Positions 10,029 to 33,063 of a DNA stretch of 64,000 nucleotides are shown here, in pieces. Below the pieces are notes generated by a model. The model worked only from the letters and a program-made list of their open reading frames with translations. It did not search any database and had not been told where the DNA came from. The DNA is from a virus: positions 1 to 64,000 of the IMG/VR virus record IMGVR_UViG_3300042386_001406; one strand, given 5' to 3'. Position 1 is the stretch's first letter, and every line of letters starts with the position of its first letter. The position numbers and the translations under genes are program-made.

Positions 10029-10029
10029 A

Positions 10030-10751: not shown

Positions 10752-11015
10752 ATGAAGCAAAATATCAACGAAATTAAGAAAATGCAGCGTATCGCTGGAT
10801 TAATTACCGAGAGTGAATACCAAGAATCAATAATGAAAGAAAATACAATACTTTCAGATGAGGCATATGATCGTATAGATGGTTTAGTTAACCAAAAAGA
10901 TATGGATATGTTACGTGATGGTGGTAGAAATATAGTACTTGATTTAACAGATGAGGGATTTGAAGACGATGAAATAATTGAGTATATATGCAGATATTTG
11001 AAAAATTTTCTATAA
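10752..11015 (+). CDS. putative head-internal protein
   Basis: N-terminal KKMQRIAGLITE resembles the scaffold C-terminus; ATATTTAT upstream. Confidence 0.55.
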   Translation: MKQNINEIKKMQRIAGLITESEYQESIMKENTILSDEAYDRIDGLVNQKDMDMLRDGGRNIVLDLTDEGFEDDEIIEYICRYLKNFL

Positions 11016-11021
11016 TAAGTA

Positions 11022-11771
11022 ATGAAGATTAGAATCAAAGAGGCACAACAAATGCCACAGGCGATATTCATGGCCGGCCCAGCTGGGGCTGGCAAATCCT
11101 TTGTTTCTAAATCATTACCACTCTCTAAATTCCAAGTAATAAATGTCGACGACGCTTATGAGGAAATGCTCAAAGCAGCTGGTATTGGAATGAAGATTAA
11201 AGACTTTACTCCTGATGAATTGTCACAAGCCGCTAAATTAATGGCGCAGGCTCAAAAAACAACTAAGGATAAATACGCCAAAGCACTCGAAAATTTAAAC
11301 GACATTATTATTGATGGAACAGGTGCAGCATCTAAGCCTTTACTCAAGAAAAAGGCAGAATTAGAGGCTTTAGGATATGAAACTATGATGGTAATGATAT
11401 ATGTTTCACCTGTAACTTCACTTGAACGTAATGCTAATAGAGAACGTTCATTAATGCCTGGTCAAGTTTTAAATACTTGGGAAAAAGTAAATAGTAACAT
11501 CAAAACATATGAACAAGCATTTGGTGACAATTTTATTTTAATAAACAATGATCCAAAAGATGCTGACATAAGTTTTGATCCTCAAGAAATAAAGCGTAGA
11601 TTTTTTGATACTGCTAAGGCTAAAGGTAAACCAAAAACACCAGAGGAATTAGCTAAGAAAAAAGCTGAAGTAGAAGCAATGAATAAAAACATTGAACAAC
11701 TACTTAAACAAAAACCAAAATTCACTCCTAGAGATCAAGCTATCTCTAAAATAAAGGCATTTATTAAATGA
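11022..11771 (+). CDS. P-loop kinase, zeta-toxin/AAA_33-like
   Basis: MAGPAGAGKS Walker A, INVDD, IIIDGT, SLERNANRER. Confidence 0.75.
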   Translation: MKIRIKEAQQMPQAIFMAGPAGAGKSFVSKSLPLSKFQVINVDDAYEEMLKAAGIGMKIKDFTPDELSQAAKLMAQAQKTTKDKYAKALENLNDIIIDGTGAASKPLLKKKAELEALGYETMMVMIYVSPVTSLERNANRERSLMPGQVLNTWEKVNSNIKTYEQAFGDNFILINNDPKDADISFDPQEIKRRFFDTAKAKGKPKTPEELAKKKAEVEAMNKNIEQLLKQKPKFTPRDQAISKIKAFIK

Positions 11772-13753
11772 TAGATTTAAATACAATATTAAACGAGTTA
11801 ACTGAAGATGATGGACAAACAACTCCACCAGCTATCTGTTACTACCCAGGTGGATTTAAACCACCACATGAAGGACACTATGAGGCTCTTAAAGATTTAG
11901 TGTCACGTCCTTACATTACTAAAGTAATAGTTTTAATTGGACATAAAACACGTGATGGTATAACTAAAGAACAAAGTAAACGTATTTGGGATTTATATTT
12001 AGCCACTACACCAATGGCTAAAGTAAGTGTTAGAATAAGTGAAGATGCCTCTCCAATTAAAGATCTATTTAGTGCCTTTGACTCTGACTTAGAACTAAAA
12101 GCATATGTCGCTGGAGCTAAATCAGAGGTAGAAGAACAAGATTATTTTACCCCATTACAAAAAGCATTTAGTACAAGAGTAATGCCTATATCAATTGATG
12201 AAAAAGTTGTTACTCAAGGTAAACGCTTGTCAGGAACTCAAGTACGTGGTTTAGTAACACAACTTAAAAAAGCAGTATTACAGTTACGTTCAATAGCTGA
12301 TAAATCATCAACTGAGTATTCTAAAGCTAGAAATGCTTATTTAAACACATATGAAGAGTTAAAAGGATGCTTTCCAGAAGCAGTTGTTCAAAAAGGACAA
12401 TATGATGATATTCTTAAAATATTAGGGATACCAGTTTTAAATGTAGACCAACTTCAAGAAAATCAAGAAGATGGTAATTTAATTATACGTGTACCTTATG
12501 CTTTAACAACTAAGATTGAGAATTTTTTAAATACAATGTTAATACCATTTGAATACTCTCAACAAGCATTTGGTGGTAAAGAAAGACGTATGTTAATTCC
12601 TAATCTAAGTGATAATAACGAACAAAAAGAAAAAGTACTTAATTATTTAAGTAAACATAACATACCTGTTAATATTGAAGAAGATTTATTTACTATTAAT
12701 TGGTGGAAACAAAGTTTAGAAGAAATTCAACTTGATGTCCCTACACCAGATGAAAAAGATGTTGATCCTGAACAACTAAAAAAAGGAATTGAAGTAGAAA
12801 AAGAACACACCAACGATGAAAAAACAGCTAAGAAAATAGCGTTAGCTCATTTAGGTGAAGATCCAAAATATTATTCTAAGTTAAAAAAAGCAGGTTTAGA
12901 AGAAACATTAACTGAACCACAAGATAAGACAGACAATATTATAGCTGATTTTATTGATTTTGCCGCTAATGCTCTTGACTTACAAAAAGTACCTAAAATT
13001 ACTTTTAGTGATGATGAGAATTTAGCTAAACAAATGCACGCGTTAGGTGCTTATCAACCTAAAACTGATGAATTATTAGTTGTTAAAGGATCAAGACTAA
13101 CAGCAGATATTTTACGCACATTAGCTCATGAGTTAGTACATCGTAAACAAGCTGAAATGGGTCCATTAGATAAAGAAGATGGTAAAACAGGTTCAGAAGT
13201 AGAAAATGAAGCTAATGCCGCCGCTGGTGTATTACTAAGACAATTTGGTAAATACAGACCAGAAATATTTGAAGAAGCAGATGCGATGAAAGGTGATTAT
13301 AAGATATACTGTGATATGGATGGTGTGTTAGTTGATTTTGATAAAGGGTATGAAGAATTAACAGGTAAAAAAGCTAGTTTTGACACACCAAAAGAAGAAT
13401 TTTGGGAACCAATTTCAAAAGCAGGTGCAGCGTTTTGGATTAAATTACAATGGATGCCTGATGGAAAACAATTATGGAATTATATTAAACCATACAATCC
13501 AGATTTACTATCAGCTCCATCACGTGAAGAATCATCTAAAATAGGTAAATTTACTTGGGTGAAAAGAAACTTACCTGGTACTAAACTTATCTTACGTTCA
13601 GCTGATCGTAAACAAGAATTTGCAACACCAAACTCTATCTTAATTGATGATAGAGCAGATAATATACAACGTTGGAAAGATGCGGGTGGTATAGGTATTC
13701 ATCACACATCAGCTGCTGATACAATACAACAATTGAAAGATTTAGGGCTATGA
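11768..13753 (+). CDS. multidomain protein: HxGH nucleotidyltransferase + DUF5661-like + HExxH domain + HAD nucleotidase
   Basis: YPGGFKPPHEGH/LSGTQVR; GIEVEKEH...AHLGEDPKYY; LAHELVH...ENEANA; YCDMDGVLVDF...LIDD. Confidence 0.75.
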   Translation: MIDLNTILNELTEDDGQTTPPAICYYPGGFKPPHEGHYEALKDLVSRPYITKVIVLIGHKTRDGITKEQSKRIWDLYLATTPMAKVSVRISEDASPIKDLFSAFDSDLELKAYVAGAKSEVEEQDYFTPLQKAFSTRVMPISIDEKVVTQGKRLSGTQVRGLVTQLKKAVLQLRSIADKSSTEYSKARNAYLNTYEELKGCFPEAVVQKGQYDDILKILGIPVLNVDQLQENQEDGNLIIRVPYALTTKIENFLNTMLIPFEYSQQAFGGKERRMLIPNLSDNNEQKEKVLNYLSKHNIPVNIEEDLFTINWWKQSLEEIQLDVPTPDEKDVDPEQLKKGIEVEKEHTNDEKTAKKIALAHLGEDPKYYSKLKKAGLEETLTEPQDKTDNIIADFIDFAANALDLQKVPKITFSDDENLAKQMHALGAYQPKTDELLVVKGSRLTADILRTLAHELVHRKQAEMGPLDKEDGKTGSEVENEANAAAGVLLRQFGKYRPEIFEEADAMKGDYKIYCDMDGVLVDFDKGYEELTGKKASFDTPKEEFWEPISKAGAAFWIKLQWMPDGKQLWNYIKPYNPDLLSAPSREESSKIGKFTWVKRNLPGTKLILRSADRKQEFATPNSILIDDRADNIQRWKDAGGIGIHHTSAADTIQQLKDLGL

Positions 13754-14289
13754 TTAAATTAATAGACATATTAAAAGAAGAAATTAATTTAGAAAAATAT
13801 GTTGAAGATTGGTTAAGTAAAGGAGGAATACATGATGACTCTAATATTAATAGAGCATTTACTATTAAACTAAAACAATTAGGTTACGAAAATTATGGAA
13901 CTATATATCGAGTTTTATTTGTCAAAAAAGATAATAAAATATCCAATTTAAAATCTTATATTTGGGACAAATATAATGGAAAATATATATCTTTTTCTGA
14001 AACTTTAGAGGGAGCAAATAAATTTATGGACCTATTAATAAATGATGGTCTGCTTAAAAAAGGAGAAATACTTGTTGTTATAAAACAAAAATCTAATTAT
14101 TATAATTTACATAAATGGGTAGAAGATAAAATAAAAGAATATGGAGGTCCTTGGCAATTTGCTGATAAAAAAGGTGTTTGGGTTGGAGGGTTGTATAGAG
14201 AAACTCAAAAAACAAAAGAAGTTTTATCAACATTAGATAATAATTTTGAAATAGTAAGACAATATTCTAAAAAAGGAAAAATGTTATGA
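13750..14289 (+). CDS. putative ADP-ribosyltransferase-fold protein
   Basis: IYRV / ISFS / late KEVL arrangement fits the R-S-E ART pattern; MIKLIDILKE leader. Confidence 0.4.
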   Translation: MIKLIDILKEEINLEKYVEDWLSKGGIHDDSNINRAFTIKLKQLGYENYGTIYRVLFVKKDNKISNLKSYIWDKYNGKYISFSETLEGANKFMDLLINDGLLKKGEILVVIKQKSNYYNLHKWVEDKIKEYGGPWQFADKKGVWVGGLYRETQKTKEVLSTLDNNFEIVRQYSKKGKML

Positions 14290-14867
14290 ATGAATCAAAT
14301 TTAAAAAAAGAGTTTTCAAAACGTGATGTACAAAGAATGAGAAATATAATCAGTGGTAATGCTAGTTCAGCCACTGGTATTCAAGTAGGTTATAGTAAAC
14401 AATCTCAAGACTACCAAGAAGGAGATGTGTGGGAAGAAAATGATAAACAATGGACCATTAAAAATGGCATCAAACAAACTGTTACTAAACATGATAAATT
14501 AAGACAGTTAGTTACTATGCCTTTAGCTTGTCCTGAATGTGATAAACCATTTAAAAATACTCCTGTAAATAAGAAAATGTGGGTTATTCATAAGATGTGT
14601 CGTGACTGTGTTATTGATATGGAGGCTAAAATTAGATTAGAAGGTAAGTGGGATGAGTATGAGCATAATATGATGAATGCTAATAAAAATGCTGATGTAG
14701 ATGAGTTTGAAAAAGCATTTAATGAATTTGTAAAAACAAGTACTGATAAAAGTTCATTTATAACTGAGGCGGGTGATATAGAAACATGGAGTGGGGGTAA
14801 AATTAATGAAGAAGAAATAAAACAAGTCAAAGAATATATAAAAAAACTGCGCGAAACAGAAATATAA
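14286..14867 (+). CDS. conserved phage protein with Zn ribbon
   Basis: EGDVWEE...WTIKNG; CPEC...CRDC. Confidence 0.6.
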   Translation: MNESNLKKEFSKRDVQRMRNIISGNASSATGIQVGYSKQSQDYQEGDVWEENDKQWTIKNGIKQTVTKHDKLRQLVTMPLACPECDKPFKNTPVNKKMWVIHKMCRDCVIDMEAKIRLEGKWDEYEHNMMNANKNADVDEFEKAFNEFVKTSTDKSSFITEAGDIETWSGGKINEEEIKQVKEYIKKLRETEI

Positions 14868-14885
14868 ATATATTTATTTTCAGCA

Positions 14886-15197
14886 ATGGAAGCAATGGAT
14901 AACATTTATACGGTCATTATAACAGCAATTACAGTTCTAGGTAGTGCTACAGCATTTCGATTTTATGAAAAGAAATCTATGCGTAAAGAACGTGATGAAG
15001 AATTTATTCGCCACGATTGTAAAGATCGTATTGCTAAATTAGAAGCATTGCTTGTTGAATCTGCTCGTGAAAAAGATGAGTTACGTAAAATGGTATTACA
15101 GCTTACAAAAGAAGTAGCTGCGTTAAGTACTAAAGTTGAATTTTTTGAAAAAGGCGCGCCTATAGTATCTGTCAAATCTCGAAAAGCTACTAAATAA
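14886..15197 (+). CDS. single-TM coiled-coil protein (possible holin/lysis accessory)
   Basis: N-terminal hydrophobic helix followed by a coiled coil; late motif upstream. Confidence 0.45.
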   Translation: MEAMDNIYTVIITAITVLGSATAFRFYEKKSMRKERDEEFIRHDCKDRIAKLEALLVESAREKDELRKMVLQLTKEVAALSTKVEFFEKGAPIVSVKSRKATK

Positions 15198-15251
15198 TCA
15201 TTACCTATTATTGCCCATTAATATATTTATATAGGATAAAAACTATATAAG

Positions 15252-15827
15252 ATGCCATATACTCGTAAAGGTAATTGTGTTTACAAAGAAACTGGTAAGA
15301 AAATGGGCTGCTCTAAAGACACTAAGGCAGCTGAAAAATATATGCGTGCTTTATATGCCGCTGAAGCAGGTAATATCAAGGAAGGATATGATTTAGATAC
15401 TATCAGCCCTGACCAACCTGAACTTGCTATAACTGTTGAATTGCCAAACCCTATACAGGTTATGGCTTCTTTTGTCTCTACATTAATGTCATCTCGTACA
15501 CAAGCTCACATATTCCACTGGCGTTGTAAAGGCGTAGGTGCTGGATGGATGCATACAGCATTAGGTGAGTATTATGATGGTATTGTAGATATATTAGATA
15601 AATTAGTTGAGTCAACTCAAGGCCGCTATGGTTTATTAGAAGGATATAAATGTGATGGACAATTTATGGAAGATGTAACTAAAGCAATTCCATATTTTGA
15701 AGCATTATGTTTGTATGTTGAAAAAAATCGTGGTTCATTACCTCAAGATTCATATATTCAAAATCAAATAGATGAAATAGTTGAGTTAATTGAAACAACT
15801 AAATATAAATTAGTAAACTTACAGTAA
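15252..15827 (+). CDS. ferritin/Dps-like protein (DUF5856-like) with N-terminal extension
   Basis: QAHIFHW...HTALGEYYD...DKLVESTQG...NQIDEI...KYKL. Confidence 0.75.
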   Translation: MPYTRKGNCVYKETGKKMGCSKDTKAAEKYMRALYAAEAGNIKEGYDLDTISPDQPELAITVELPNPIQVMASFVSTLMSSRTQAHIFHWRCKGVGAGWMHTALGEYYDGIVDILDKLVESTQGRYGLLEGYKCDGQFMEDVTKAIPYFEALCLYVEKNRGSLPQDSYIQNQIDEIVELIETTKYKLVNLQ

Positions 15828-16474
15828 TGCGTATTCGTATAATTAAAGAAGCTATAGCAACTGATATAACTGATATAGTAAAAAATACTATTGGACTTAA
15901 AGCCACTGTTAAACGCTTTAAGAATAATATATTAGTAGCTTCACCAGGTGGATTCTTCTCACCTAGCCGTTTACAAAATATGGCTGATGAATTGAATGAT
16001 AGAATACCTGAACCCTGGTTAGAAAGTCCTGTAAGTGTAGGTACAGGTGGTGCTACTGAAGGTTTACTTATTATAAGATTGAATGATGAGGGTATGAAAC
16101 ATACCAATTTATTTGAAGCAGAAGAGGATTTTACACCAATTGAAGATCCAAAGGAACCAAAACCAGCAGCTAAACAATTTCAAATATTAGCTTCAATGAT
16201 CACTAACACTAAAGTTAATGATCAAACTAATATATTATCAGCAATGAGAGCATTACCAGGTGTTACTATTGTTAACTCACAAGCAGCAATTCCAGGTTCA
16301 AATTCAGAAGGACAACTCCGCTATAAAACAAATGTTGACATTAAAATTGATACTTCAGCACTCAGTGGTGATATAAAAACTGCTATTAAGAAAATAATTG
16401 AAGATATTAAGAAAATTGAAGGTGTAGTTGAGTTTAAAGTATTACCAAAAGCAAAAGAAACAACTCCATACTAA
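15827..16474 (+). CDS. hypothetical protein, C-terminal ACT/ferredoxin-like module
   Basis: ILSAMRALPGVTIV...IKKIEGV; MRIRIIKE leader. Confidence 0.5.
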   Translation: MRIRIIKEAIATDITDIVKNTIGLKATVKRFKNNILVASPGGFFSPSRLQNMADELNDRIPEPWLESPVSVGTGGATEGLLIIRLNDEGMKHTNLFEAEEDFTPIEDPKEPKPAAKQFQILASMITNTKVNDQTNILSAMRALPGVTIVNSQAAIPGSNSEGQLRYKTNVDIKIDTSALSGDIKTAIKKIIEDIKKIEGVVEFKVLPKAKETTPY

Positions 16475-17127
16475 TGAATAAGATACAATTAAAGGAGCAT
16501 ATTGAAAAAATCATTAACTATGTAGGCCAAGAATACAATCATGGTCCTAAGTTAGTTATGAATGAATCTAAAGAACCAGTCTTTATTTCTGAAGGCTTAT
16601 ATTACCATATTGAAAATAACTTACCACTAAACGAATCAATATATCGTCCTCAATCAGCAATGTTTTTAAAATTATTTGTTGAAGCAAGAAACTTATATGA
16701 TTCTAAGCGTTTAGTATTATGTGAATCAGATCAATATTATTTTGACAATACAGATATAGGTACATTTGGTGAGTATAATGGTATTAAAGTGCCACTAGAC
16801 TTACCTCTGACCGAGGAATTTCTAACAGAAGCATTAGAAGAAGAAAAAAAACAACCAGCATTAGGTAAACCTAAGCGTGGTGGTTCTAAAAAATTCTATG
16901 TGTATGTTAAAGATCCTAAAACCAAACGTATTAAAAAAGTATCATTTGGTATGGCAGGTGGTGGCTTAAGAGCCAAATTAAACAACCCAAAAGCTAGACA
17001 AGCGTTTTCTAAACGCCACAATTGTCCTCAAAAGAAAGACAAAACTAAAGCTTCATATTGGAGTTGTCGTTTACCTCGCTATGCTAAACTATTAGGATTT
17101 AAAACAACATTTAGTGGATTTTGGTAA
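16474..17127 (+). CDS. conserved phage protein, basic C-terminal domain
   Basis: KKFYVYVK...KKVSFG...FSKRHNC...YWSCR. Confidence 0.6.
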   Translation: MNKIQLKEHIEKIINYVGQEYNHGPKLVMNESKEPVFISEGLYYHIENNLPLNESIYRPQSAMFLKLFVEARNLYDSKRLVLCESDQYYFDNTDIGTFGEYNGIKVPLDLPLTEEFLTEALEEEKKQPALGKPKRGGSKKFYVYVKDPKTKRIKKVSFGMAGGGLRAKLNNPKARQAFSKRHNCPQKKDKTKASYWSCRLPRYAKLLGFKTTFSGFW

Positions 17128-17744
17128 TGATTAGTCTAATTGACATATTACATGAAATGTATCCACCATATAAAGCAAATATGGTATCAAAAGTTAGATA
17201 TAAAGCATCTGATGTTTGGACTAATGACCAAGAATTAGCTGTAAAAAGAGGATACTTGGAAAGTGATGAACCTGAAAAAGGCACAGGTAAAAAACCTAAA
17301 GGATCTAGTCGTCGTTTATACACAGATGAAGATCCAAAAGATACAGTTAAAATTAAATTCAAAACCGCTCAAGATGTTAAAGATACATTATCAAAAAAGA
17401 CATTTAAAGCAAAACCACATGCTCGTAAGTCACAAATTATTAATGTAATCCATCAGCGTGTCAGAGCAGCTTATAATAGAGCTAAAGATCCAGATGTTAA
17501 ATCTAGATTAAAACGTGCTTTGGATTATATTGAAAAGCGTAAAGAAGCATCTAAAGAAAAAACTAAAAGTTTAAATAAAGAAACATCAGATCCACAATCA
17601 GGTAAAGCAGCACCATATGGTTCAGGATATGCTCCTATACAACAGAATGAAGACATATTAAATGAAAAATGCTGGCCTGGATATACTAAAAAAGGAATGA
17701 AAACAATGTTTGGAAAAAAATACCCTAATTGTGTAAAAAAATGA
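17127..17744 (+). CDS. basic multi-module phage protein
   Basis: ATG at 17127 gives MISLIDILHE; RRLYTDEDPKDTV module; terminal CWPGY...PNCV mini-domain. Confidence 0.6.
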   Translation: MISLIDILHEMYPPYKANMVSKVRYKASDVWTNDQELAVKRGYLESDEPEKGTGKKPKGSSRRLYTDEDPKDTVKIKFKTAQDVKDTLSKKTFKAKPHARKSQIINVIHQRVRAAYNRAKDPDVKSRLKRALDYIEKRKEASKEKTKSLNKETSDPQSGKAAPYGSGYAPIQQNEDILNEKCWPGYTKKGMKTMFGKKYPNCVKK

Positions 17745-18058
17745 TAAAACTAACTCAACTACTAACTGAAGTAAAAGAAACATTTGAAAGTTTTGCCACT
17801 ATTCGTGGTAAAGGTGCTGCTAAAATTGCCGCCACTGCTGAAGAAAAAGGTGGATTATCTCTATTAACATGGCATCATTTTAAAGTAAAAGCTCCGTACT
17901 ATAAAAAAGCAACTGAGGGTAAATTTGATAAAGAAGTTGCTAAAAAAGAATTTGAACAAACATATAAAAAGATATCATTAAACATGACTCAAACTGAATT
18001 TCAACGTGAAGTTGGTCGTTTAGAGGTATTAGGTGAACTGTTAATAGAAAATAAATAA
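17741..18058 (+). CDS. hypothetical protein with MIKLTQLLTE leader
   Basis: ATG at 17741 overlaps the upstream stop. Confidence 0.6.
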   Translation: MIKLTQLLTEVKETFESFATIRGKGAAKIAATAEEKGGLSLLTWHHFKVKAPYYKKATEGKFDKEVAKKEFEQTYKKISLNMTQTEFQREVGRLEVLGELLIENK

Positions 18059-18060
18059 TA

Positions 18061-18324
18061 ATGAGTCAACCTTATGTAGACTTAGTTGTGACAGATGAAT
18101 ATGTGATTAGGGAATTTGATAAAAACATTGACCCTATAGAGCTAATGTGGCATCGAGATGATGAAAACAGGATGGTTGAAGCTATAGAACCAACAGATTG
18201 GCTAGTACAACTAGACAACCAGTTACCAATGTCTATGACCCAACCAATATTTATACCACGTCATATGTGGCATAGAACTATAAAAGGCACAGGTAAATTA
18301 AAGATAAAAATATATAAATCATGA
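18061..18324 (+). CDS. cupin-like protein
   Basis: WHRDDENR...FIPRHMWHRTIKG. Confidence 0.6.
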   Translation: MSQPYVDLVVTDEYVIREFDKNIDPIELMWHRDDENRMVEAIEPTDWLVQLDNQLPMSMTQPIFIPRHMWHRTIKGTGKLKIKIYKS

Positions 18325-18761
18325 AAAAATCTGAATTAAAACAATTAATCAGAGAAGCAATCGAAGAAGTAAAACCTAAAGTTGAAGAAGATGTAATCAA
18401 CGAAGGATTTGCTCCTGAAACTGATGAAGTTGGCTCATTTTGGGTGGTTGAAAAACCATCTACTAGCGCTACTTTAGATGACATTTGCTTTGAATGCGAA
18501 AATGTAATGTACTTTGCTCGTCAAATTGCTGGTGGTTTAAAACCAGAAGATATCAAAGGTGTATTCACTAAAGAAGCTAAAGCTAAAAAGTTAGCTGAAA
18601 AATTACTTAAAGCTCGTGACACTAAAAAAGAAGAAGTAAAACAAGCAGCTGAAGCTTATAAAAAAATGAAAGAAGAAACTTTAGCAAAAGTACAAGAGTA
18701 CATGAAAAATAAGAAAGCTACTAAACAAGTAGTTGACGAGTTAAAAGACGAAGTTAAGTAA
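18321..18761 (+). CDS. hypothetical protein with MKKSELKQLIRE leader
   Basis: Leader motif plus charged helical C-terminus. Confidence 0.55.
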   Translation: MKKSELKQLIREAIEEVKPKVEEDVINEGFAPETDEVGSFWVVEKPSTSATLDDICFECENVMYFARQIAGGLKPEDIKGVFTKEAKAKKLAEKLLKARDTKKEEVKQAAEAYKKMKEETLAKVQEYMKNKKATKQVVDELKDEVK

Positions 18762-19135
18762 TGAAGTTAACAGACATATTACTTGAAACTCTGCTTGAAA
18801 AGAAAAAAGACAGATGTCATCGTATCGCTGATAGGCGTTATGATAAACCATCTGCTTATAAGTCAGGTGCTATAGTGAGATGTCGCCAAGGTAAAATTTG
18901 GAAAGATCTTAAAGAAGATGAATCATTACGTAAATGGTTTGGTCGCAGAGGCGCAGCTGGTAAAGAAGGTGGATGGGTTGATTGTAACACATGTCGCAAA
19001 GTAGATGGTAAAACCAAATGTAAACCTTGTGGTAGAAAAGAAGGTGAAAAACGAGCTAAATACCCATCATGTCGACCAACACCTGCTGGATGTAAGAAAA
19101 AAGGAAAAGGTAAAACTTGGGGAAAAACAAAATAA
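18761..19135 (+). CDS. basic Cys-containing phage protein
   Basis: PSAYKSGAIVRCR; LRKWF...WVDC...CGR...YPSCRP. Confidence 0.6.
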   Translation: MKLTDILLETLLEKKKDRCHRIADRRYDKPSAYKSGAIVRCRQGKIWKDLKEDESLRKWFGRRGAAGKEGGWVDCNTCRKVDGKTKCKPCGRKEGEKRAKYPSCRPTPAGCKKKGKGKTWGKTK

Positions 19136-19137
19136 AT

Positions 19138-19596
19138 ATGCAAGACAATTTTAACATACATGGTTGGCGTTTAAATCAAGCCATTAAAGAAGTAGAAGAA
19201 GCTACATTCACAAACAAACATGATGACAATCCTAAATTAAAAGGTGGACAGAAAAAATTACCTGATGAATTACAAGCGGGAATCTTAAAGAAAGAAGACA
19301 CAACAGGATACTCTACTGATTATAAAAAAGGATATAGAGATGGATATCAAGATGGAAAAGAAGGTAAATTTGGTAAACAATTCGCTGTAAAAGAAGGTGA
19401 AGACCATGAAGTAGCAATGGCTAAATCTAGTCTACAATCTATTATGAGTTCAGCCTCAAAATTAATGGTAATGTTAGGTGATGAAGAGCGTAACATACCA
19501 GGATGGATTCAAGATCATATTACTAATGCTGAAAACTATATTGATCAAGCTGCTCAAGGCTTTCATGAATTAGAAAATAACAATGAAGAAGATTAA
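19138..19596 (+). CDS. hypothetical multi-module protein
   Basis: MQDNFNI leader; YKKGYRDGYQDG; DHEVAMA...PGWIQDHIT module. Confidence 0.55.
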   Translation: MQDNFNIHGWRLNQAIKEVEEATFTNKHDDNPKLKGGQKKLPDELQAGILKKEDTTGYSTDYKKGYRDGYQDGKEGKFGKQFAVKEGEDHEVAMAKSSLQSIMSSASKLMVMLGDEERNIPGWIQDHITNAENYIDQAAQGFHELENNNEED

Positions 19597-21079
19597 AATC
19601 ATAAAATCAAGACCAATAAAGGAAGAAGAAGAAGTAATTGATCAGGTACCTCAAGACACAGCTCCTGAGCAACCTGAGATTACTTATGAATCTAATCCTT
19701 TAGAGTTTATACTTCAAAAATATCCAACATTAACTGAAACATTAGTTAAATTATTAACTGATGATTTCAGAAACTATATTATTGGTGTTTATATAATGGC
19801 TCCAAAGCCAACTATATTCAAGATTGTTTTACATAACAATCGCTCATTTTATTTAACATATATGGGTAAGTGTTATGAAGCTAAAGTAAGTGGTAAGAAA
19901 TTCTGGCTATTAAAAGTAAGTGAACTTGAAACAGCCACCATTGAAATAGCTAACTTATTAATGCTAGGTACTCCTCCATCAGTTAAAGGACCTGAAGCTG
20001 AAATGACAGCGGCTCCTGAGGAAACACCAACAGAAGAAGCACCAGCAGAAGAAACTCCACCAGCAGAAGAAGAAGCACCTGAAGAATTAGCTGAAGATGT
20101 TATTAAAGAAGATCTTAACACAACTAAAAAAGAATTAACTAAGTTAGGGTATAAAGATGAAGATATTGTTCCTATAACTAAAAGTAAAATTAAGTTATTA
20201 GTACCTGCTAAAGAAAGAATGAATGTTATTAATACTTTAGTTGACAAGTTAAAATATACTTGGGATAAAGATATTAAAGGTTCTTCTATTGGTGGAGTAA
20301 TAGCTAAAGATGGTGAAACAGTAATTATACCAAAACCAAAAGAAAAACAAGGTGGTGGTAGTGCTGGTTTAGGAAATGAATCATTTTTAGCAAATAAAAT
20401 TAAATCTACTGTTGAAGAAGTAGGTGGTCCTATCACTGTTGTTGTTAAAGGCGACAATGGTAAAAGTATAAGATTTAATGGTGTTACTGACGCTGAAGAA
20501 GCAGGACGTGACACAGCTGGAAATAAAAAATCAGACATCAGATTATTAGCTGGGAGTAAAGTTGTAGGTAACTTATCATTAAAGCAAAAAAATGCTTCAA
20601 TGTGGGAAAGTGCTGACAAGCGTTATAAAGACTTGATGATTAAACTTGTAGAAAAATTACTTAAAAAACCATATAAAAATTTAGGTTTAACTAAAACTGA
20701 TAAAAAAGATATTTACAGATTATATAATCCATCTACTGGTCAAGAATATAGTGGTATTATCATAACAGATTTAGATAATAAAGATATGGCTTCTATTGTA
20801 TTTGGATCTGATAAACCACAAACAGTAGTAGTTAAAGAAACATTTGATGAAAGTGATTTTACATTAAACAGTAAAGTATTAACAATCAGTGTTGATAATT
20901 TAGCTACAAGTTTAGAAGATATTGTTGGAACAAAATATGAACCAATATTAGTAGTAAGACATGATTCAACTAGAACAGCTACAGCTGGTTTAAGACCAAT
21001 TGTATACACTAAAGAATCTGTTTACAAAGGAGACAAAGTATCTGGTAACAGAATAGAATTATCTTATAATAAAATTTAA
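19583..21079 (+). CDS. two-part protein with C-terminal restriction-endonuclease-like PD-(D/E)XK domain
   Basis: Acidic P/E linker, then GLGNE...KSDIRL...LSLK pattern. Confidence 0.5.
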   Translation: MKKIKIIKSRPIKEEEEVIDQVPQDTAPEQPEITYESNPLEFILQKYPTLTETLVKLLTDDFRNYIIGVYIMAPKPTIFKIVLHNNRSFYLTYMGKCYEAKVSGKKFWLLKVSELETATIEIANLLMLGTPPSVKGPEAEMTAAPEETPTEEAPAEETPPAEEEAPEELAEDVIKEDLNTTKKELTKLGYKDEDIVPITKSKIKLLVPAKERMNVINTLVDKLKYTWDKDIKGSSIGGVIAKDGETVIIPKPKEKQGGGSAGLGNESFLANKIKSTVEEVGGPITVVVKGDNGKSIRFNGVTDAEEAGRDTAGNKKSDIRLLAGSKVVGNLSLKQKNASMWESADKRYKDLMIKLVEKLLKKPYKNLGLTKTDKKDIYRLYNPSTGQEYSGIIITDLDNKDMASIVFGSDKPQTVVVKETFDESDFTLNSKVLTISVDNLATSLEDIVGTKYEPILVVRHDSTRTATAGLRPIVYTKESVYKGDKVSGNRIELSYNKI

Positions 21080-21143
21080 TATTTATTAACACATACAGAA
21101 CAGATTCATTGCCTGTTTGCTTATAAAAGATAAAAATTGGAGT

Positions 21144-21175
21144 AGTGGCCCACCAAAAAGGTGGGCTACTTTTTT
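21144..21175 (+). terminator. intrinsic terminator
   Basis: AGTGGCCCACC-aaaaa-GGTGGGCTACT followed by TTTTT. Confidence 0.9.
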
Positions 21176-21210
21176 GCCTGCGCAAAATAAAGATGTTATA
21201 TTTAAACCTA

Positions 21211-23863: not shown

Positions 23864-24832
23864 ATGGCAGACAATTTTGATCTTAGAAAATTTATTACTG
23901 AAGCGAAACTTAAAATTAAAGTTCCTGTAAAGGAAATGGCGCGTATCGCTAAAGAAAAATATAAACTCAATCCAGACTTTCCACAAATTGAAGATAGAAT
24001 TGCTAATCCTAGCAACTTTAAAACAGATAGAAAACAACAAGTAGTTAATTACTTTGTTAAAAAAGCAAAAGACGAGAGTATTGATCCAATGGAAGTTGAA
24101 TTGCTAAAAAGTGATATTGAAAAAAATTCAGCTCCTGGTATTAACTGGTCTTTCACTCCTGATATTCGTAATCAACTTTTAAAAGCCACAACTGTTAAAC
24201 CAGAAAAAGCAGCTGATGAAGAACCAGGTGAAGGTGATATATTTGGTGGCGCTGATGATGCTGAAGATTTGTTTGTAGGTAAAGGTAAACTTAAATCTAA
24301 AAAAGCAAAACCAGAAACAGGGGATGAAGAGCCAGGTGAAACAGATATCACTAAAATTAAAGCACCAAAATCAACAGCTGCTGGTTCTAAAGCTGGTGAG
24401 TGGTTTGTAGATAACAGTGACTTAATTGATCGTATTATTAAACAATATGCTCAATCAAATATTAAAACAGGACGCGCTGTTAAAGAAGCAGAAGATGGTG
24501 GTTTATCAAGTGCTGATTTCAAAGCAGCTCAAGCTAAATCTAAAGAAGCAGCTAAAGCTGGTTTACCTGACTTAGTAAAACGTCTTGTAGACAAAATTGA
24601 AGTTTTAAAAGATGAAGATTATAATGCTTATGTTAAAGTATTAAATGATCTTGACAAATATAAATTCGGAGCTACTAATACTAAAGGAGTAATGAAAATG
24701 ATCCTTAAATCATTAGGCGAAGATAAACTTCCAGCTATTGGATCTAAGAGAAAAGATAGTGAAGAAGATGAATTTAAAAAATTAGGTATTGATGATACAG
24801 ACATTGAAATTGATGGTGAAGAGGAACTCTAA
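23864..24832 (+). CDS. putative head-internal protein
   Basis: MADNFDLRKFITE leader; highly charged; late motif upstream. Confidence 0.5.
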   Translation: MADNFDLRKFITEAKLKIKVPVKEMARIAKEKYKLNPDFPQIEDRIANPSNFKTDRKQQVVNYFVKKAKDESIDPMEVELLKSDIEKNSAPGINWSFTPDIRNQLLKATTVKPEKAADEEPGEGDIFGGADDAEDLFVGKGKLKSKKAKPETGDEEPGETDITKIKAPKSTAAGSKAGEWFVDNSDLIDRIIKQYAQSNIKTGRAVKEAEDGGLSSADFKAAQAKSKEAAKAGLPDLVKRLVDKIEVLKDEDYNAYVKVLNDLDKYKFGATNTKGVMKMILKSLGEDKLPAIGSKRKDSEEDEFKKLGIDDTDIEIDGEEEL

Positions 24833-25558: not shown

Positions 25559-25580
25559 GATCCTTGCAATCCCATGCACT

Positions 25581-25611: not shown

Positions 25612-25635
25612 ATATATTTATATACAAACAGTTGC

Positions 25636-27228: not shown

Positions 27229-27258
27229 ATAAATATTTATAACATATACTAAGATATT

Positions 27259-29148: not shown

Positions 29149-29184
29149 TATACATATTTATAATTAGTATCATTATACTAAACT

Positions 29185-30039
29185 ATGCGTATAAAACATA
29201 ACAAATTTCGCAACACTGGTGTATTATTTGAGCTATTAGTGCGTCAAATAGCATCAGACACATTGGCGAATACTGATTCTAAGGCGGTAAAGATTGTGAA
29301 AAAATATTTTCATAGTAATGAAATAGCAAAAGAGCATAAACTCTATCATACTATTTTAACAGCGCCACGCTTAAGTGAAGGTAAAGCTGAAGCATTAGTT
29401 AATACTACTGTTGACTTAGCTAAAAAATTAAATAAAGAAACATTACTTAAGGAAAAATACAACTTAATTAAAGAAATTAAGAAGCATTATAATCTTGAAA
29501 GTTTCTTTAAAGCTAAAGTTAACAACTATAAAGCTCTAGCTGCTGCTTACACATTATTTGAAGCCGCTATGGATAATAAGTTTGTTGAGCCTAAACAATT
29601 AGTGCTTAATAAACTTACTGTAATGGAACATATCACTAAGAAAACCTTAGTTGAAAATAAAGAAAACGAAGTTGAACAAGTATTAGCTAAAGAAGATAAA
29701 AATGTACGTTTATTAGCATATAAAATGTTAATTGAGAAGTTCAACACTAAATACTCAACATTAAGTACACGTCAAAAGTTAGTACTTAAAGAATTCATTA
29801 ACAATATTTCTAATCCTGAACACCTTAAAACATATATCAACGAGAACCTTAATAAGGTTAAAACTGAGTTAACTGATTTAGTTAAACAAGTTAATGACAA
29901 AACAACTGAAATTAAGTTAAACGAAGTTATAACGTTGATAAAGCCAATATCTAACAAGTCGTCTGTAAAAGATGAACATTTAGTAGCATTACTTCAATAT
30001 CAGCAACTAGCTGAGGAAATTAAGAAAGTAAATGGATAA
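29185..30039 (+). CDS. conserved head-module protein
   Basis: MRIKHNKFRNTGVLFELL; helical; lies between portal and protease. Confidence 0.55.
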   Translation: MRIKHNKFRNTGVLFELLVRQIASDTLANTDSKAVKIVKKYFHSNEIAKEHKLYHTILTAPRLSEGKAEALVNTTVDLAKKLNKETLLKEKYNLIKEIKKHYNLESFFKAKVNNYKALAAAYTLFEAAMDNKFVEPKQLVLNKLTVMEHITKKTLVENKENEVEQVLAKEDKNVRLLAYKMLIEKFNTKYSTLSTRQKLVLKEFINNISNPEHLKTYINENLNKVKTELTDLVKQVNDKTTEIKLNEVITLIKPISNKSSVKDEHLVALLQYQQLAEEIKKVNG

Positions 30040-30679
30040 GAAAAAATTAGGAATTAAACTTAAAAAAGAAACATCGGCCACAGGAACCGGTGCTTCTGTA
30101 ACTCCAGGTGTTGGTATGGGCGTAGCTACAAAATATGCTTTTAAGAAAAAAGTAAAAGAAGATGCCCCACAACTAGCAGCTGGTAAAGTAAAAGATAACT
30201 ATGCTGTGTCTCATTTTGGTTTTACTAATGCTCCATCTAAACCAAATCGTTCTTCAAAAGCAATTGACTATAAAGAACTATGGGAAGCAGGTGAATATGA
30301 GTCTTTAGCAGATATGTTAGCACAATTAGGTGCTGAAGAAGATGCTGTTAAAGTACTTGTAAAAGCAGTTGAAATGGGAGCTTTAAAACCAACTGATGCT
30401 ATTGAAATTGTTAAAAAAACAGTTAGCTTAAATGAAGGATACGCTCAGTTTAGAAATGAAACTAAAATGCGTTCTAAACCAGATCAGTTCCATCAAGCAG
30501 TTAAACAAATAAAAAGAAAAATGAACGAAATCAATCGCATATTTGAATACGTTGATCGTTTAAAAAGTGAATTAAGTGAAGGTGAAGATTTAAAATATAA
30601 AAAATATACTGAAAATGCATTCCAACAAATTAAAGAGAGTGCAAAATCATTATTTTTAAAATCTACAAAACTAAAATAA
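30032..30679 (+). CDS. head-module hypothetical protein
   Basis: ATKYAF motif; C-terminal coiled coil. Confidence 0.5.
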   Translation: MDKKKLGIKLKKETSATGTGASVTPGVGMGVATKYAFKKKVKEDAPQLAAGKVKDNYAVSHFGFTNAPSKPNRSSKAIDYKELWEAGEYESLADMLAQLGAEEDAVKVLVKAVEMGALKPTDAIEIVKKTVSLNEGYAQFRNETKMRSKPDQFHQAVKQIKRKMNEINRIFEYVDRLKSELSEGEDLKYKKYTENAFQQIKESAKSLFLKSTKLK

Positions 30680-30680
30680 A

Positions 30681-31538
30681 ATGGCAGATAATTTTGACAT
30701 GAAACAATTCCTAGTTGAAAACAAATTAGGTGCTTATTCTAAATTAAGAGAAAATCCAGAGCAACAATATTATGTTCATGATGAAGAAGGATTAGAAGAA
30801 CCAATTGGTCCTTTCTCATTAGAACAAGCTAAAGCTGAAGTAATTAAACAAGGTGAAGGCTGGAAATTGATTGATGCTGAAACAGCTAAAGAAATTTGGT
30901 CACATTTAGGTGAAGGTGAAGCTGCTTATGAATATGAGAAAGGTAAAGCCGCTGGTGAAAAAGAAGAAAAAGAAAAATTAGCTAAAGAAGATCTAGGACA
31001 AGATCGTACTGATGCTGAAGCAGAAAAAATGATGGATTTCTTAGCTGAGAAAAATGTAGAAGAAGTAAGCCAAAATACATTCATGGTTGTTGATAGAATT
31101 GAAGAAATTGTTAGTAATTTAGCTCGCAATATCTCAACTAACTCAAATATTCCAACACAAGATAAAATTGGTTTAGTACAAGCTCTTAAAGAATTAAAAG
31201 AGTATGTTGAAGATTTAGGTGTTGAACTTGAAATGAATGAAACTAAAAAACCAGTAAAAGAAGGTGAAGATATTTTCGCTGATATTGAAGATGATCTTAT
31301 GCATGGAACTGATAGTAAGAGAGATCAAATTGAATACTTACAAGAAGTTATTGACTGGTGTCAAAATAAAATAGAGAAAATTAAAGACACTAATATGGAT
31401 GAAGCTATGGGTGGTAAAAATCCAGAAGGTGATAAATTAGTATTACGCTTTTTAAAAGGTGTAGCTAAAAAATTTGACTACCCTGTAGCACAAGCTGCTA
31501 TATTTGTTAAAGATACAATTAAAAGTTTAGGATATTAA
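30681..31538 (+). CDS. putative head-internal polyprotein
   Basis: MADNFDMKQFLVE leader; short modules (incl. GYF-like GPFSLEQ) separated by x-x-E motifs. Confidence 0.5.
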   Translation: MADNFDMKQFLVENKLGAYSKLRENPEQQYYVHDEEGLEEPIGPFSLEQAKAEVIKQGEGWKLIDAETAKEIWSHLGEGEAAYEYEKGKAAGEKEEKEKLAKEDLGQDRTDAEAEKMMDFLAEKNVEEVSQNTFMVVDRIEEIVSNLARNISTNSNIPTQDKIGLVQALKELKEYVEDLGVELEMNETKKPVKEGEDIFADIEDDLMHGTDSKRDQIEYLQEVIDWCQNKIEKIKDTNMDEAMGGKNPEGDKLVLRFLKGVAKKFDYPVAQAAIFVKDTIKSLGY

Positions 31539-31540
31539 TT

Positions 31541-31666
31541 ATGGCAAAAGCAATAAGAGGCGAAAGCCGCAAAGTTACATTTGGTAAACGTAAAGGCGGT
31601 AACGCTAAAAAATCATATAACAAACATAGCCCTCGCCCAAAAGCATATCGTGGTCAGGGCCGTTAA
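31541..31666 (+). CDS. small very basic peptide (41 aa, not in ORF track)
   Basis: MAKAIRGESRKVTFGKRKGGNAKKSYNKHSPRPKAYRGQGR; exactly fills the gap. Confidence 0.75.
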   Translation: MAKAIRGESRKVTFGKRKGGNAKKSYNKHSPRPKAYRGQGR

Positions 31667-31677
31667 TATTTATTAGT

Positions 31678-33063
31678 ATGAAAAAACCAATCAACGAAAT
31701 AGAAAGACTTAAACTTATCGCTGGTTTAATTAACGAAATTAATTATAATGACTCAGTATACGGCGTTAAAAGAACAACATTAACTGAGGGTAAAAAGAAA
31801 AAAGAAGTTAAAGAATTATCTATAGACGTTGCTAACCCATACGAATACCGTATGGGTCTTCAATATGAACTAGAGCAAATGGATGACTATAGTAATGAAT
31901 CTTTAGAAAAAGCTAAATCAATTGTATTGAAGAACTTAGCTAAAGATGTTAACTTCTATACTACTTTACTTAACCAAGATCAATCACCTTATAAGTTTGA
32001 AGCTCCTGAAACAGACAAACCAGGTATGCAAGCTAAAGCTGATGGTTATTTAAAGAAAGAATTAAAGAAAGATGCTAAAGCTAATGTACAAGATACATTA
32101 GGTAAAAAAGAAGCAGGTTCTAAAAAACCTAAAGGTGTTAAAGTAATGCCTGATAAAGGTGTAACTGGCTCTGAAAAAACCATTAAAGAGAATCTTATTA
32201 ATGAGGTAATATTAAAAGTATATCATTATGATCCATCATCAGGTGATTTAGAAGATGTGGATGTTGAATATTTTAGTTCTGAAGAAGAAGCTAAAAAAGC
32301 TGCTTTAGCTCATCATTGGCAAGTAGCTTTTGATAATGGAGATACAGATCTTAGTAAAGAAGATTTTATATCTCAAACTAACTTTGATGACTTTGAACCA
32401 TATAACAACTACGATTATAAAATAGTATCTGATAAAGGTAATATTAAAGAAGGATTAGAAGAAGCTTCAAAAGATCCACATGACAAAGCTAAGGTAATGA
32501 AAGTGGATGGTAAATTCGAAGTTTATACAACTCAAGATGGTGAAATAAAAACATTCGATAAAGAAGCTGATGCTAAAGCATTTGCTGATAAATATAACAG
32601 TGAGAATGTTAAAGAAGGTTCATTCATGGGTGGTGTTGATTTAGGTGCTTCATTTGATAAAATGAAAGGACAAATGAATGCTGAAGATGAATTTAATTCA
32701 TTAATGTCTAAGTATGACTGGTATTATGAAATGAGCGATGATCCACGTGCTTATGATCGTGGAACAGCTATGAATAGTAAATTAAAGATGTTAGGTAAGC
32801 AAATTGGTGTTGATAAAGCTATTGAATTATTCAACTCTAAAGCTCCATCTGATAGAAAAATAACATCTTCTTTCTTTATGGAAGGTGAAGATAAGCATTC
32901 TAAAATTAAAGAAGCATTAAAAGCTGCTTTAAAGAAAGCTTTAAAAGAAGAAGATCCAGCTATGGCTAGAATAGAAAAAGACGAAGAAGCCGCTGAAAAA
33001 GCTTTAGCACAAATATTAACAAAGAAAGCAGCTGTATTAGCTAAACCAGGAACCCAAGGATAA
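31678..33063 (+). CDS. putative head-internal polyprotein
   Basis: RLKLIAGLINE leader; DUF5661-like MGLQYE...KNLAKDVNFY; YDWYYEMSDD module. Confidence 0.5.
   Translation: MKKPINEIERLKLIAGLINEINYNDSVYGVKRTTLTEGKKKKEVKELSIDVANPYEYRMGLQYELEQMDDYSNESLEKAKSIVLKNLAKDVNFYTTLLNQDQSPYKFEAPETDKPGMQAKADGYLKKELKKDAKANVQDTLGKKEAGSKKPKGVKVMPDKGVTGSEKTIKENLINEVILKVYHYDPSSGDLEDVDVEYFSSEEEAKKAALAHHWQVAFDNGDTDLSKEDFISQTNFDDFEPYNNYDYKIVSDKGNIKEGLEEASKDPHDKAKVMKVDGKFEVYTTQDGEIKTFDKEADAKAFADKYNSENVKEGSFMGGVDLGASFDKMKGQMNAEDEFNSLMSKYDWYYEMSDDPRAYDRGTAMNSKLKMLGKQIGVDKAIELFNSKAPSDRKITSSFFMEGEDKHSKIKEALKAALKKALKEEDPAMARIEKDEEAAEKALAQILTKKAAVLAKPGTQG

What the first reader, a model, noticed from the sequence alone, without database searches (positions are those of the whole stretch)
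10752..33063. Candidate capsid-cargo system: ~16 unrelated proteins share short N-terminal leaders ending in a prohead-protease-type site
Seen: otherwise unrelated genes begin with a few recurrent leader classes, nearly all ending in (I/L/V)-x-E. Class A: MIDLNTILNE (11768), MIKLIDILKE (13750), MISLIDILHE (17127), MIKLTQLLTE (17741), MKLTDILLE (18761). Class B: MADNFDLRKFITE (23864), MADNFDMKQFLVE (30681), MQDNFNI...AIKE (19138). Class C: INEIxx(M/L)xxIAGLIxE (10752, 31678). Class D: MKIRIKE, MRIRIIKE, MKKIKIIKSRPIKE (11022, 15827, 19583). Class E: MKKSELKQLIRE (18321), MNKIQLKE (16474). MDKKKLGIKLKKE (30032) is a looser match. The replication and repair enzymes (primase, exonuclease, glycosylase, oxidoreductase) lack these leaders. 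Known: T4 internal proteins use a ~10-aa capsid-targeting sequence removed by gp21 after (I/L)-x-E and are then injected. Inference: a greatly expanded, multi-class address-label system loading many effectors into the head.
Basis: partly seen in the sequence, partly recalled or inferred. Interest (0 to 1): 0.9.

Follow-up and report, generated by a model that had tools for sequence, protein, structure and literature searches.

The report
Capsid-loading leader tags on phage proteins
An uncultured T4-type phage of Bacteroidota puts a handful of short N-terminal tags, each ending in the cutting site of its own head protease and one copying the tail of its scaffold protein, on about 16 unrelated proteins. 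This most likely loads them into the capsid, as T4 does with its internal proteins, but no experiment has tested it.

Summary
All 16 leaders are in the sequence as described, the protein bodies behind them are unrelated, and the pattern exceeds chance. A hydrophobic-x-x-hydrophobic-hydrophobic-x-Glu motif ends at residue 8-20 in 11 of 82 contig proteins (1.7 expected), and 10 of these lie in the region.

- The phage has a T4-type head module: gp20 portal, S77/gp21 protease with its His and Ser, gp22-like scaffold and gp23 capsid protein. T4's cleavage sites are kept at homologous positions.
- Class A leaders conserve exactly the residues (4, 7, 8, 10) that were mapped as functional in the T4 capsid targeting sequence.
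- N-termini chosen only on hydrophobic residues 4, 7 and 8 carry Glu 29 times and Asp 0 times at position 10.
- The class C leader core copies the scaffold's invariant C-terminus (28 bits against 4 for the next best site).
- Orthologues swap leader classes.
- Leader genes sit in operons behind the same upstream motif as the structural genes.
- The class C leader heads about 1,500 protein clusters in metagenomes.

No virion proteomics exists, so packaging, cutting and injection are inferred. Class D and the 30032 leader are weaker. The scan has noted similar leader systems in other genomes. Verdict: a new variant of a known kind; interest 0.66.

The parts
10752..11015 (+). 87-aa protein with a class C leader (first 20 aa end L-I-T-E, followed by further Y-Q-E and M-K-E sites)
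11022..11771 (+). 249-aa P-loop kinase (Zeta_toxin/AAA_33-like) with a short class D leader ending I-K-E. This is a weak class.
11768..13753 (+). 661-aa multi-domain protein with a class A leader: an HxGH nucleotidyltransferase motif, DUF5661, an HExxH region and a C-terminal 5'-nucleotidase. I-F-E-E precedes the nucleotidase domain. In immuto that domain is a separate gene with its own leader.
13750..14289 (+). 179-aa protein with a class A leader (L4, I7, L8, E10). Function unknown.
15827..16474 (+). 215-aa protein with a class D leader ending I-K-E (weak class)
16474..17127 (+). 217-aa protein with a variable N-terminal propeptide. In all relatives a conserved PHI-PHI-x-E|S-K/x-x-P junction lies just before the conserved body.
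17127..17744 (+). 205-aa protein with a class A leader
17741..18058 (+). 105-aa protein with a class A leader that is kept in its orthologues
18321..18761 (+). 146-aa protein with a class E leader that is kept in its orthologues
18761..19135 (+). 124-aa DUF5872-like protein with a 9-aa class A leader. In relatives the two halves occur as separate genes, each with its own leader (class A or E).
19138..19596 (+). 152-aa protein with a class B-like leader ending I-K-E
19583..21079 (+). 498-aa protein with a class D-like leader. Homologues of its body carry class E-like leaders instead.
23864..24832 (+). 322-aa protein with a class B leader, highly conserved across the clade. E13 and E24 are invariant. 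In the model the leader is a helix followed by a disordered linker.
30032..30679 (+). 215-aa head-module protein. The leader is hypervariable among relatives but always ends in Glu just before the conserved Gly-rich body.
30681..31538 (+). 285-aa head-module protein with a class B leader
31678..33063 (+). 461-aa protein with a class C leader, directly upstream of the protease
33063..33692 (+). Prohead protease of family S77 (T4 gp21-like). The catalytic His and Ser are kept, and the N-terminus carries an L-I-E site like T4 gp21.
33886..35223 (+). gp22-like scaffold. Its N-terminal site is homologous to T4 gp22's first cleavage site. Its extreme C-terminus (35185-35220) is invariant in relatives and equals the core of the class C leader.
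35253..36920 (+). gp23-like major capsid protein. The predicted propeptide cut after Glu59 (V-V-E|Q, codon 35427-35429) aligns with T4's L-T-E|A site.
10723..10730 (+). ATATTTAT upstream motif (presumed late promoter) heading the operon 10752-14867. Further copies lie at 14870, 15223, 23837, 25614 (TerL), 27233 (portal), 29154 and 31666.

Best explanation
The leaders are capsid-targeting propeptides of the T4 kind.

1. Genes for about 16 unrelated proteins are co-expressed with the head genes from ATATTTAT-type promoters (inferred).
2. Each protein starts with a 7-20 residue amphipathic helix that docks it to the scaffolding core or the inner shell while the prohead assembles (inferred).
3. 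For class C, docking would work by imitating the scaffold protein's own conserved C-terminal motif. The sequence identity is shown; the binding partner is inferred.
4. The gp21-like S77 protease then cuts after the Glu that ends every leader, as it is predicted to cut the capsid protein, scaffold and itself at homologous T4 sites. This would free the cargo inside the head (inferred).
5. By analogy with T4 IPI-III and Alt, the cargo would leave with the DNA at infection (the least certain step).

Leaders and bodies are exchangeable modules, so new cargo is recruited simply by acquiring a leader.
For: - Head module of T4 type: Portal_T4 7e-67, Peptidase_S77 2.5e-30, Gp23 3e-78. The protease matches T4 gp21 structure 5JBL at 2.5e-18 with His and Ser kept.
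- T4's gp23 cut L-T-E|A aligns with V-V-E|Q here, and this site is invariant in 19 distinct relative sequences. The protease N-terminus carries L-I-E like T4 gp21. The scaffold N-terminus is homologous to gp22's first site.
- The T4 review PMC9026906 states that CTS residues 4 and 7 target and 8 and 10 govern processing, and that Asp at 10 blocks processing. Class A leaders conserve L4, I/L7, L8 and E10.
- N-termini selected only on hydrophobic 4, 7 and 8 have Glu 29 of 91 and Asp 0 of 91 at position 10. Internally the rates are 9.0% and 8.7%.
- T4's own gp24, Alt, IPII and IPIII N-termini are found by the same motif.
- A class C matrix built from leaders alone gives the scaffold C-terminus 28.3 bits in the contig (next unrelated site 4.4) and 23.1 bits in immuto (next 3.3). 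A six-frame regex finds only these three places in each genome. The scaffold tail is invariant in 28 relatives and in Microcystis phage Mel-JY01.
- Orthologues swap leader class, and split genes each gain a leader.
- Leader codons differ at synonymous sites.
- ATATTTAT lies within 45 nt upstream of a start in 23 of 30 plus-strand copies (p 6e-25). It precedes TerL, portal, sheath and tube as well as the leader operons. Leaders occur on 13 of 19 genes in such operons against 0 of 7 in others. In immuto, two isolated leader genes each have their own copy.
- All 4 near-complete contigs with a class C leader encode an S77 protease.
Against: - No virion proteome, N-terminal sequence or cleavage assay exists for this phage or any relative. 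Literature searches found none.
- Some cargo are ordinary-looking nucleotide enzymes (a kinase, a nucleotidyltransferase-nucleotidase fusion), and there is no evident reason to package them.
- 23864 is far more conserved than expected for arms-race cargo (74-98% identity), and its role is unknown.
- The late-promoter reading of ATATTTAT is inferred from position only.
- Similarity of class A and E leaders to internal scaffold islands is not above background.
- The co-occurrence with S77 is within one clade, so it is not independent evidence.
- Tail and baseplate genes share the promoter motif without leaders, so late expression alone does not predict a leader.
Confidence: 0.62

Rival explanations
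1. The leaders are protease-removed propeptides, but the proteins are auxiliary prohead-core or assembly factors. They would be degraded or expelled at maturation, as T4 gp67, gp68 and most of gp22 are, and would not be delivered to the host.
For: Three leader genes (30032, 30681, 31678) sit between portal and protease, where T4 has gp67 and gp68. Many bodies are acidic, modular and rich in further PHI-x-E sites. 23864 is highly conserved like an assembly factor.
Against: Several bodies are enzymes: a P-loop kinase, and an HxGH nucleotidyltransferase with a 5'-nucleotidase. Cargo families are extremely diverse: about 1,500 clusters for class C, with at least 28 body families in the top 120 hits. 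That diversity fits exchangeable payloads better than core parts.
Confidence: 0.18
2. The leaders are N-terminal helices with a function unrelated to the capsid. Examples would be docking to another phage complex, a stability or degradation tag, or an aid to translation initiation in a host without Shine-Dalgarno use.
For: The leaders are AT-rich and sit at starts that often overlap the previous stop. Some leader genes in immuto lie among metabolic genes.
Against: - Synonymous variation at the Leu, Ile and Glu codons shows selection on the peptide.
- Glu 29 to Asp 0 at the leader end fits a Glu-specific protease rather than a generic helix.
- The class C core equals the scaffold C-terminus by more than 20 bits over background.
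- Isolated leader genes carry the structural-gene upstream motif.
Confidence: 0.12
3. There is no common function. The resemblance would come from low-complexity composition of an AT-rich genome, or from recombination scars at gene boundaries.
For: The bare [ILV]-x-E motif is expected in 17% of N-termini by chance. The pairwise N-terminal similarity test is only modest in the window itself: 14 pairs against 4.7, with a null maximum of 13.
Against: - The motif is enriched 6-fold in the contig and 3.5-fold in 80 relatives.
- Immuto has 29 N-terminal pairs scoring at least 26 against 4.7 +/- 2.1 expected.
- The class C and B profiles each find well over a thousand proteins, with the match at the N-terminus in nearly every one of the top-listed hits.
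- Upstream DNA is not conserved.
Confidence: 0.04

Closest known systems
Phage T4 capsid targeting sequence (CTS) on IPI, IPII, IPIII (and the propeptides of Alt and gp24), removed by gp21
   Same: A short N-terminal leader of about 10 residues with hydrophobic residues at 4, 7 and 8 and Glu at 10. It is removed by an S77 prohead protease after (L/I)-x-E. The bodies are unrelated and the locus is plastic. The head genes are homologous (gp20, gp21, gp22, gp23).
   Different: - There are at least four robust leader classes here, not one.
- About 16 carriers lie in 22 kb, against about 5 in all of T4.
- The carriers include large multi-domain enzymes.
- One class copies the scaffold's C-terminus, and T4 gp22's C-terminus shows nothing comparable.
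- Nothing has been tested experimentally.
Propeptides of head and ejection proteins in phiKZ-like giant phages (201phi2-1, phiKZ gp175, SPN3US gp245)
   Same: Many head-internal proteins are processed after Glu by a gp21-related protease. Cleavage sites within propeptides are redundant (PMC9026906).
   Different: Those propeptides are long and not organised as a few short portable classes shared by unrelated proteins. They have been verified by mass spectrometry. The phage here is 160-170 kb class, not jumbo.
Scaffold-C-terminus-mediated encapsidation (P22 scaffold helix-turn-helix binding coat; used to load foreign cargo)
   Same: A short scaffold-derived peptide would suffice to bring a protein inside a procapsid. 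The class C leader carries the scaffold's terminal motif.
   Different: In P22 this is an engineering trick (stated from my own knowledge). Here it appears as a natural, N-terminally placed, protease-removable copy on many genes. Which partner the motif binds is unknown.
Phage P1 Dar antirestriction proteins packaged through N-terminal capsid-targeting regions
   Same: Defence-countering enzymes are loaded into heads by an N-terminal signal (PMC9024508 is listed; I did not read it).
   Different: The head lineage differs. There is no shared short leader family and no T4-type (L/I)-x-E rule.

Membership tests
T4-type prohead protease system (MEROPS S77, gp21) | Protease homologous to gp21 with the catalytic His and Ser | tested here: met
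   PF03420 at 2.5e-30. 5JBL at 2.5e-18. The window keeps His in L-D-H-P and Ser in S-S-R-G, where the crystallised mutant has Ala.
T4-type prohead protease system (MEROPS S77, gp21) | Known substrates (capsid protein, scaffold, protease) keep PHI-x-E sites at positions homologous to T4's | tested here: met
   gp23 site aligned and invariant in relatives. Scaffold N-terminal site and protease L-I-E site are kept.
T4 capsid targeting sequence (CTS) | N-terminal leader of about 10 aa with targeting residues 4 and 7 and processing residues 8 and 10 (Glu) | tested here: met
   Class A leaders have L4, I/L7, L8 and E10 against the mapping quoted in PMC9026906. Glu 29 to Asp 0 at position 10. Classes B, C and E are longer and differ in sequence.
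T4 capsid targeting sequence (CTS) | The same leader on proteins with unrelated mature parts | tested here: met
   No body similarity. Leader swapping among orthologues. At least 28 body families among 120 class C hits.
T4 capsid targeting sequence (CTS) | The leader is sufficient to bring a protein into the prohead | not testable with these tools
   Needs reporter fusions in a cultured relative such as immuto on Flavobacterium sp. LMO8.
T4 capsid targeting sequence (CTS) | The leader is removed after Glu by the prohead protease, and the mature protein is present in virions | not testable with these tools
   No proteomic data were found for the clade.
Injected internal proteins / effectors (IPI*, Alt) | Cargo is ejected into the host and acts there | not testable with these tools
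   Only analogy is available. The functions of most bodies are unknown.

The most novel reading that the evidence does not exclude
A whole, abundant clade of aquatic T4-type phages of Bacteroidota (and relatives such as a Microcystis phage) runs a plug-in capsid-loading system with several interchangeable address tags. At least one tag is a natural copy of the scaffold's own terminal docking motif. The system carries on the order of a thousand different cargo families, including ready-made nucleotide/NAD-type enzymes and likely counter-defence proteins, which are injected with the DNA.
Probability: 0.35. Interest if true: 0.8.

Novelty: new variant of a known kind. Interest (0 to 1): 0.66.

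Why it matters
If the leaders work as inferred, they are a simple sequence key for listing the proteins that an abundant, mostly uncultured phage group carries inside its capsid and delivers at infection. That class of proteins includes anti-restriction and host-takeover factors in T4 and cannot otherwise be recognised from sequence.

The scaffold-tail copy (class C) also suggests how such tags arise and which contact they use. That makes the old question of what the T4 CTS binds to testable in a second system.

The tags are unannotated. No Pfam family covers them, yet the class C tag alone heads about 1,500 protein clusters at 50% identity in public data.

Tried and rejected
- Megablast of the head region against cultured phages: no match.
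- tblastn of the 32-aa class C leader against cultured phages: no match, because the query is too short for that database.
With class matrices the scaffold segments are not separated from background: 9.4 against 9.4, 9.0 and 8.9 for class A, rank 5 for class E, and absent from the top hits in immuto. I reject this beyond class C.
- The bare PHI-PHI-x-E motif by position shows no clear N-terminal excess in immuto or T4.
- The N-terminal pair-similarity test is only modest in the window.
- Function of 23864: no Pfam or PHROG hit; the AlphaFold model has pLDDT 61; Foldseek against PDB finds nothing below E 0.6. I could neither confirm nor exclude that it is a small terminase.
- 13750 as an Alt-like ADP-ribosyltransferase: the Atlas look-up was uninformative and I did not pursue it.
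I replaced it with the search for related loci plus genome search.
- A DNA-level explanation (shared promoter or recombination box inside the leader) is rejected, because codons vary synonymously and the upstream DNA differs.
Full report
**What the window is**

The window is the first 64 kb of a 76.5-kb viral contig. It has 32% G+C and almost all genes lie on the plus strand. No near-identical cultured phage exists.

The nearest named relative is Flavobacterium phage vB_FspM_immuto, with 56% identity in the capsid protein and the same gene order. Further out are Microcystis phage Mel-JY01 (50%) and Rhodothermus phage RM378 (37%).

The head module is of T4 type:
- large terminase, 25636-27228;
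- gp20-like portal, 27259-29148 (Portal_T4, 7e-67);
- four genes without family matches, 29185-33063;
- an S77/gp21-like prohead protease, 33063-33692 (2.5e-30);
- a coiled-coil acidic scaffold, 33886-35223;
- a gp23-like capsid protein, 35253-36920 (3e-78).

The protease matches the solved T4 gp21 structure 5JBL (2.5e-18). It keeps His and Ser at the two positions where the crystallised protein carries Ala and wild-type T4 carries His and Ser.

**The observation**

- Past residue 25 the proteins are not similar to each other by blastp. Two leader pairs are picked up on their leaders alone.
- A seven-residue pattern (hydrophobic, two free, two hydrophobic, one free, Glu) ending at residue 8-20 occurs in 11 of 82 proteins of the contig. 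The rate inside proteins predicts 1.7 (p about 1e-6). Ten of the eleven lie in the flagged region.
- The bare [ILV]-x-E rule is much weaker, because 17% of proteins are expected to meet it. It still separates the region (17 of 29) from the rest (9 of 53, Fisher 2e-4). Two of the nine outside are the protease and the capsid protein.
- The pairwise N-terminal similarity test is modest in the window and strong in immuto: 29 pairs against 4.7 +/- 2.1.
- The same classes occur in immuto and in 80 related IMG/VR loci fetched with the terminase, where 117 of 935 proteins carry the motif against 33 expected.
- T4 serves as a calibration. The same pattern finds IPII, IPIII, gp24 and Alt, on a background of about ten chance hits among 264 proteins. 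The density here is therefore far higher than in T4 itself.

**Is it a peptide signal, and is the Glu special?**

Leader codons vary at synonymous positions (Leu TTA/CTA/CTT, Ile ATA/ATT, Glu GAA/GAG) and the DNA upstream is unrelated. The conserved object is therefore the peptide.

I then chose N-termini only on hydrophobic residues at 4, 7 and 8. Position 10 is Glu in 29 of 91 distinct N-termini and Asp in none. The same pattern inside proteins is followed by Glu 9.0% and Asp 8.7% of the time.

The T4 review PMC9026906 states that in the IPIII targeting sequence residues 4 and 7 carry targeting and residues 8 and 10 carry processing, and that Asp at 10 blocks processing. Class A leaders conserve exactly L4, I/L7, L8 and E10.

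**Are the protease's rules the same as T4's?**

- T4 gp23 is cut after L-T-E. This aligns with V-V-E|Q at Glu59 here and V-S-E|A in immuto. The site is invariant in 19 distinct relative sequences.
- The protease starts with an L-I-E site like T4 gp21.
- The scaffold N-terminus is homologous to the first gp22 site.

**Link to head assembly**

- The scaffold's last eleven residues are invariant in 28 relatives and also in Mel-JY01.
- A loose regex for the core finds only three places in six frames of the contig: the two class C leaders and the scaffold tail. It likewise finds three in immuto and none in T4.
- A position matrix built from N-terminal leaders alone gives the scaffold tail 28.3 bits, against 4.4 for the next unrelated site among 23,000 positions. 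In immuto the figures are 23.1 and 3.3.
- The same note's claim that class A and E copy internal scaffold islands did not hold, although those islands are conserved.

**Modularity**

- One body occurs with a class A leader in two loci and a class B leader in a third.
- Another body has class E in immuto and a class B-like leader elsewhere.
- The DUF5872-like gene is split in some relatives, and each half then has its own leader.
- The 16474 family has variable N-termini but a fixed PHI-PHI-x-E junction before the body.
- The 30032 family has a hypervariable leader that always ends in Glu before the conserved Gly-rich body. The 19583 family swaps class D-like for class E-like leaders.
- The 5'-nucleotidase domain is fused here behind I-F-E-E. 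In immuto it is a separate gene with its own leader ending L-L-E-E.

**Expression context**

ATATTTAT occurs 30 times on the plus strand of the contig. Twenty-three copies lie within 45 nt upstream of a start codon (p 6e-25). The motif precedes terminase, portal, sheath, tube and baseplate genes. It also precedes the operons starting at 10752, 15252, 23864, 29185 and 31678.

Between 9.7 and 25.6 kb, 13 of 19 genes in such operons carry leaders, against 0 of 7 genes outside them (Fisher 0.005).

In immuto, two isolated leader genes that sit among metabolic genes each have their own copy of the motif.

That the motif is a late promoter is an inference from position. Tail genes share it without leaders, so leaders mark a subset of the genes that carry this motif.

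**Spread**

- A profile of fifteen class C leaders finds 1,496 representatives (50% identity clusters) at E <= 0.001 among 1.84 billion proteins, and 140 at <= 1e-10. The match starts at residue 1 in nearly all of the top 150. None has a Pfam domain, and the top 120 fall into at least 28 body families.
- Class B gives a similar picture. Forty-five of its 120 best hits have a second, internal copy, which suggests fusions or polyproteins.
- Of 16 long viral contigs with a class C leader, 11 encode an S77 protease. All four that are at least 90% complete do. This is one clade, so it shows consistency and is not independent proof.

**Mechanism and limits**

The most economical reading is a T4-type targeting and maturation system: leaders dock cargo to the assembling core, the protease removes them after Glu, and the cargo stays in the head.

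- Shown: the sequence features, their statistics, and the homology of the machinery.
- Inferred: binding, cutting, presence in virions, late timing and, least securely, ejection into the host.

No proteomics exists for the clade. Cargo functions are mostly unknown. A P-loop kinase and a nucleotidyltransferase/nucleotidase fusion are recognisable. For 23864, the model shows a leader helix, a disordered linker and two domains with no fold match. Class D and the 30032 leader are weaker members.

**Comparison and novelty**

The concept (CTS, gp21, plastic internal-protein loci, giant-phage propeptides) is established. What goes beyond it:
- several co-existing leader classes;
- the high fraction of genes that carry a leader;
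- the scaffold-tail copy;
- the size of the metagenomic cargo pool.

The scan's own notes describe similar leader systems in other uncultured T4-type genomes. I did not test those. No paper describing this was found in the library searched.

Noticed in passing
window 6404-9682 (+): A 1092-aa protein with a signal peptide, a CarboxypepD_reg domain and an outer-membrane beta-barrel (TonB-dependent-receptor-like) is encoded inside the phage contig. It lies behind a terminator-like hairpin and has no ATATTTAT motif close to its start.
   Followed up: partly
window 694, 4093, 10723, 14870, 15223, 23837, 25614, 27233, 29154, 31666, 36977, 37671, 59765, 60258 and others (+): ATATTTAT lies 10-33 nt upstream of many starts (23 of 30 plus-strand copies in the contig, p 6e-25). 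It also occurs 31 times on the plus strand against 4 on the minus strand in immuto. It is probably the late promoter of this phage group.
   Followed up: partly
window about 9690-9790 and 10029-10073: ATTGACCGC is repeated upstream of the small genes at 9792 and 10074. This may be a different (early, host-type) promoter class.
   Followed up: no
window 21079-21192: An ATATTTAT copy is followed by a G+C-rich hairpin and a T-run with no ORF before the gene at 21193. It could be a terminator or a small transcript.
   Followed up: no
window 31541-31666 (+); L001 4165-4302: A small, very basic ORF (41 aa) in the head module ends in Y-R-G-Q-G-R. Immuto has a 45-aa counterpart ending Y-R-G-Q-G-K. It has no family match and no leader.
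   Followed up: partly
window 11768-13753; L001 2958-3557: The 5'-nucleotidase domain is fused to a 661-aa multi-domain protein here. In immuto it is a separate gene with its own leader. The junction in the window carries I-F-E-E, which suggests an internal cut site.
   Followed up: partly
proteins P0001, P0003, P0004, P0006, P0035, P0054, P0262-P0285: Many metagenomic proteins carry a second, internal copy of the class C or class B leader, often preceded by Met. They may be gene fusions or polyproteins of leader-cargo units.
   Followed up: partly
window 48942-49577, 52209-52922, 52941-53645 (+): Three tail-fibre-like paralogues share an N-terminal D-G-L-V-L-N-L-D...S-Y-P-G-S-G-T-T block. Immuto has the same paralogue set.
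   Followed up: no
L171 11107-11334: Microcystis phage Mel-JY01 has a ribosomal protein S21 gene annotated inside its head module, between the protease and the scaffold.
   Followed up: no
window 29185-30039 (+): A 284-aa protein follows the portal gene in every one of 54 relatives. It has a conserved I-L-F-E at residues 13-16, which may be a further protease site.
   Followed up: no
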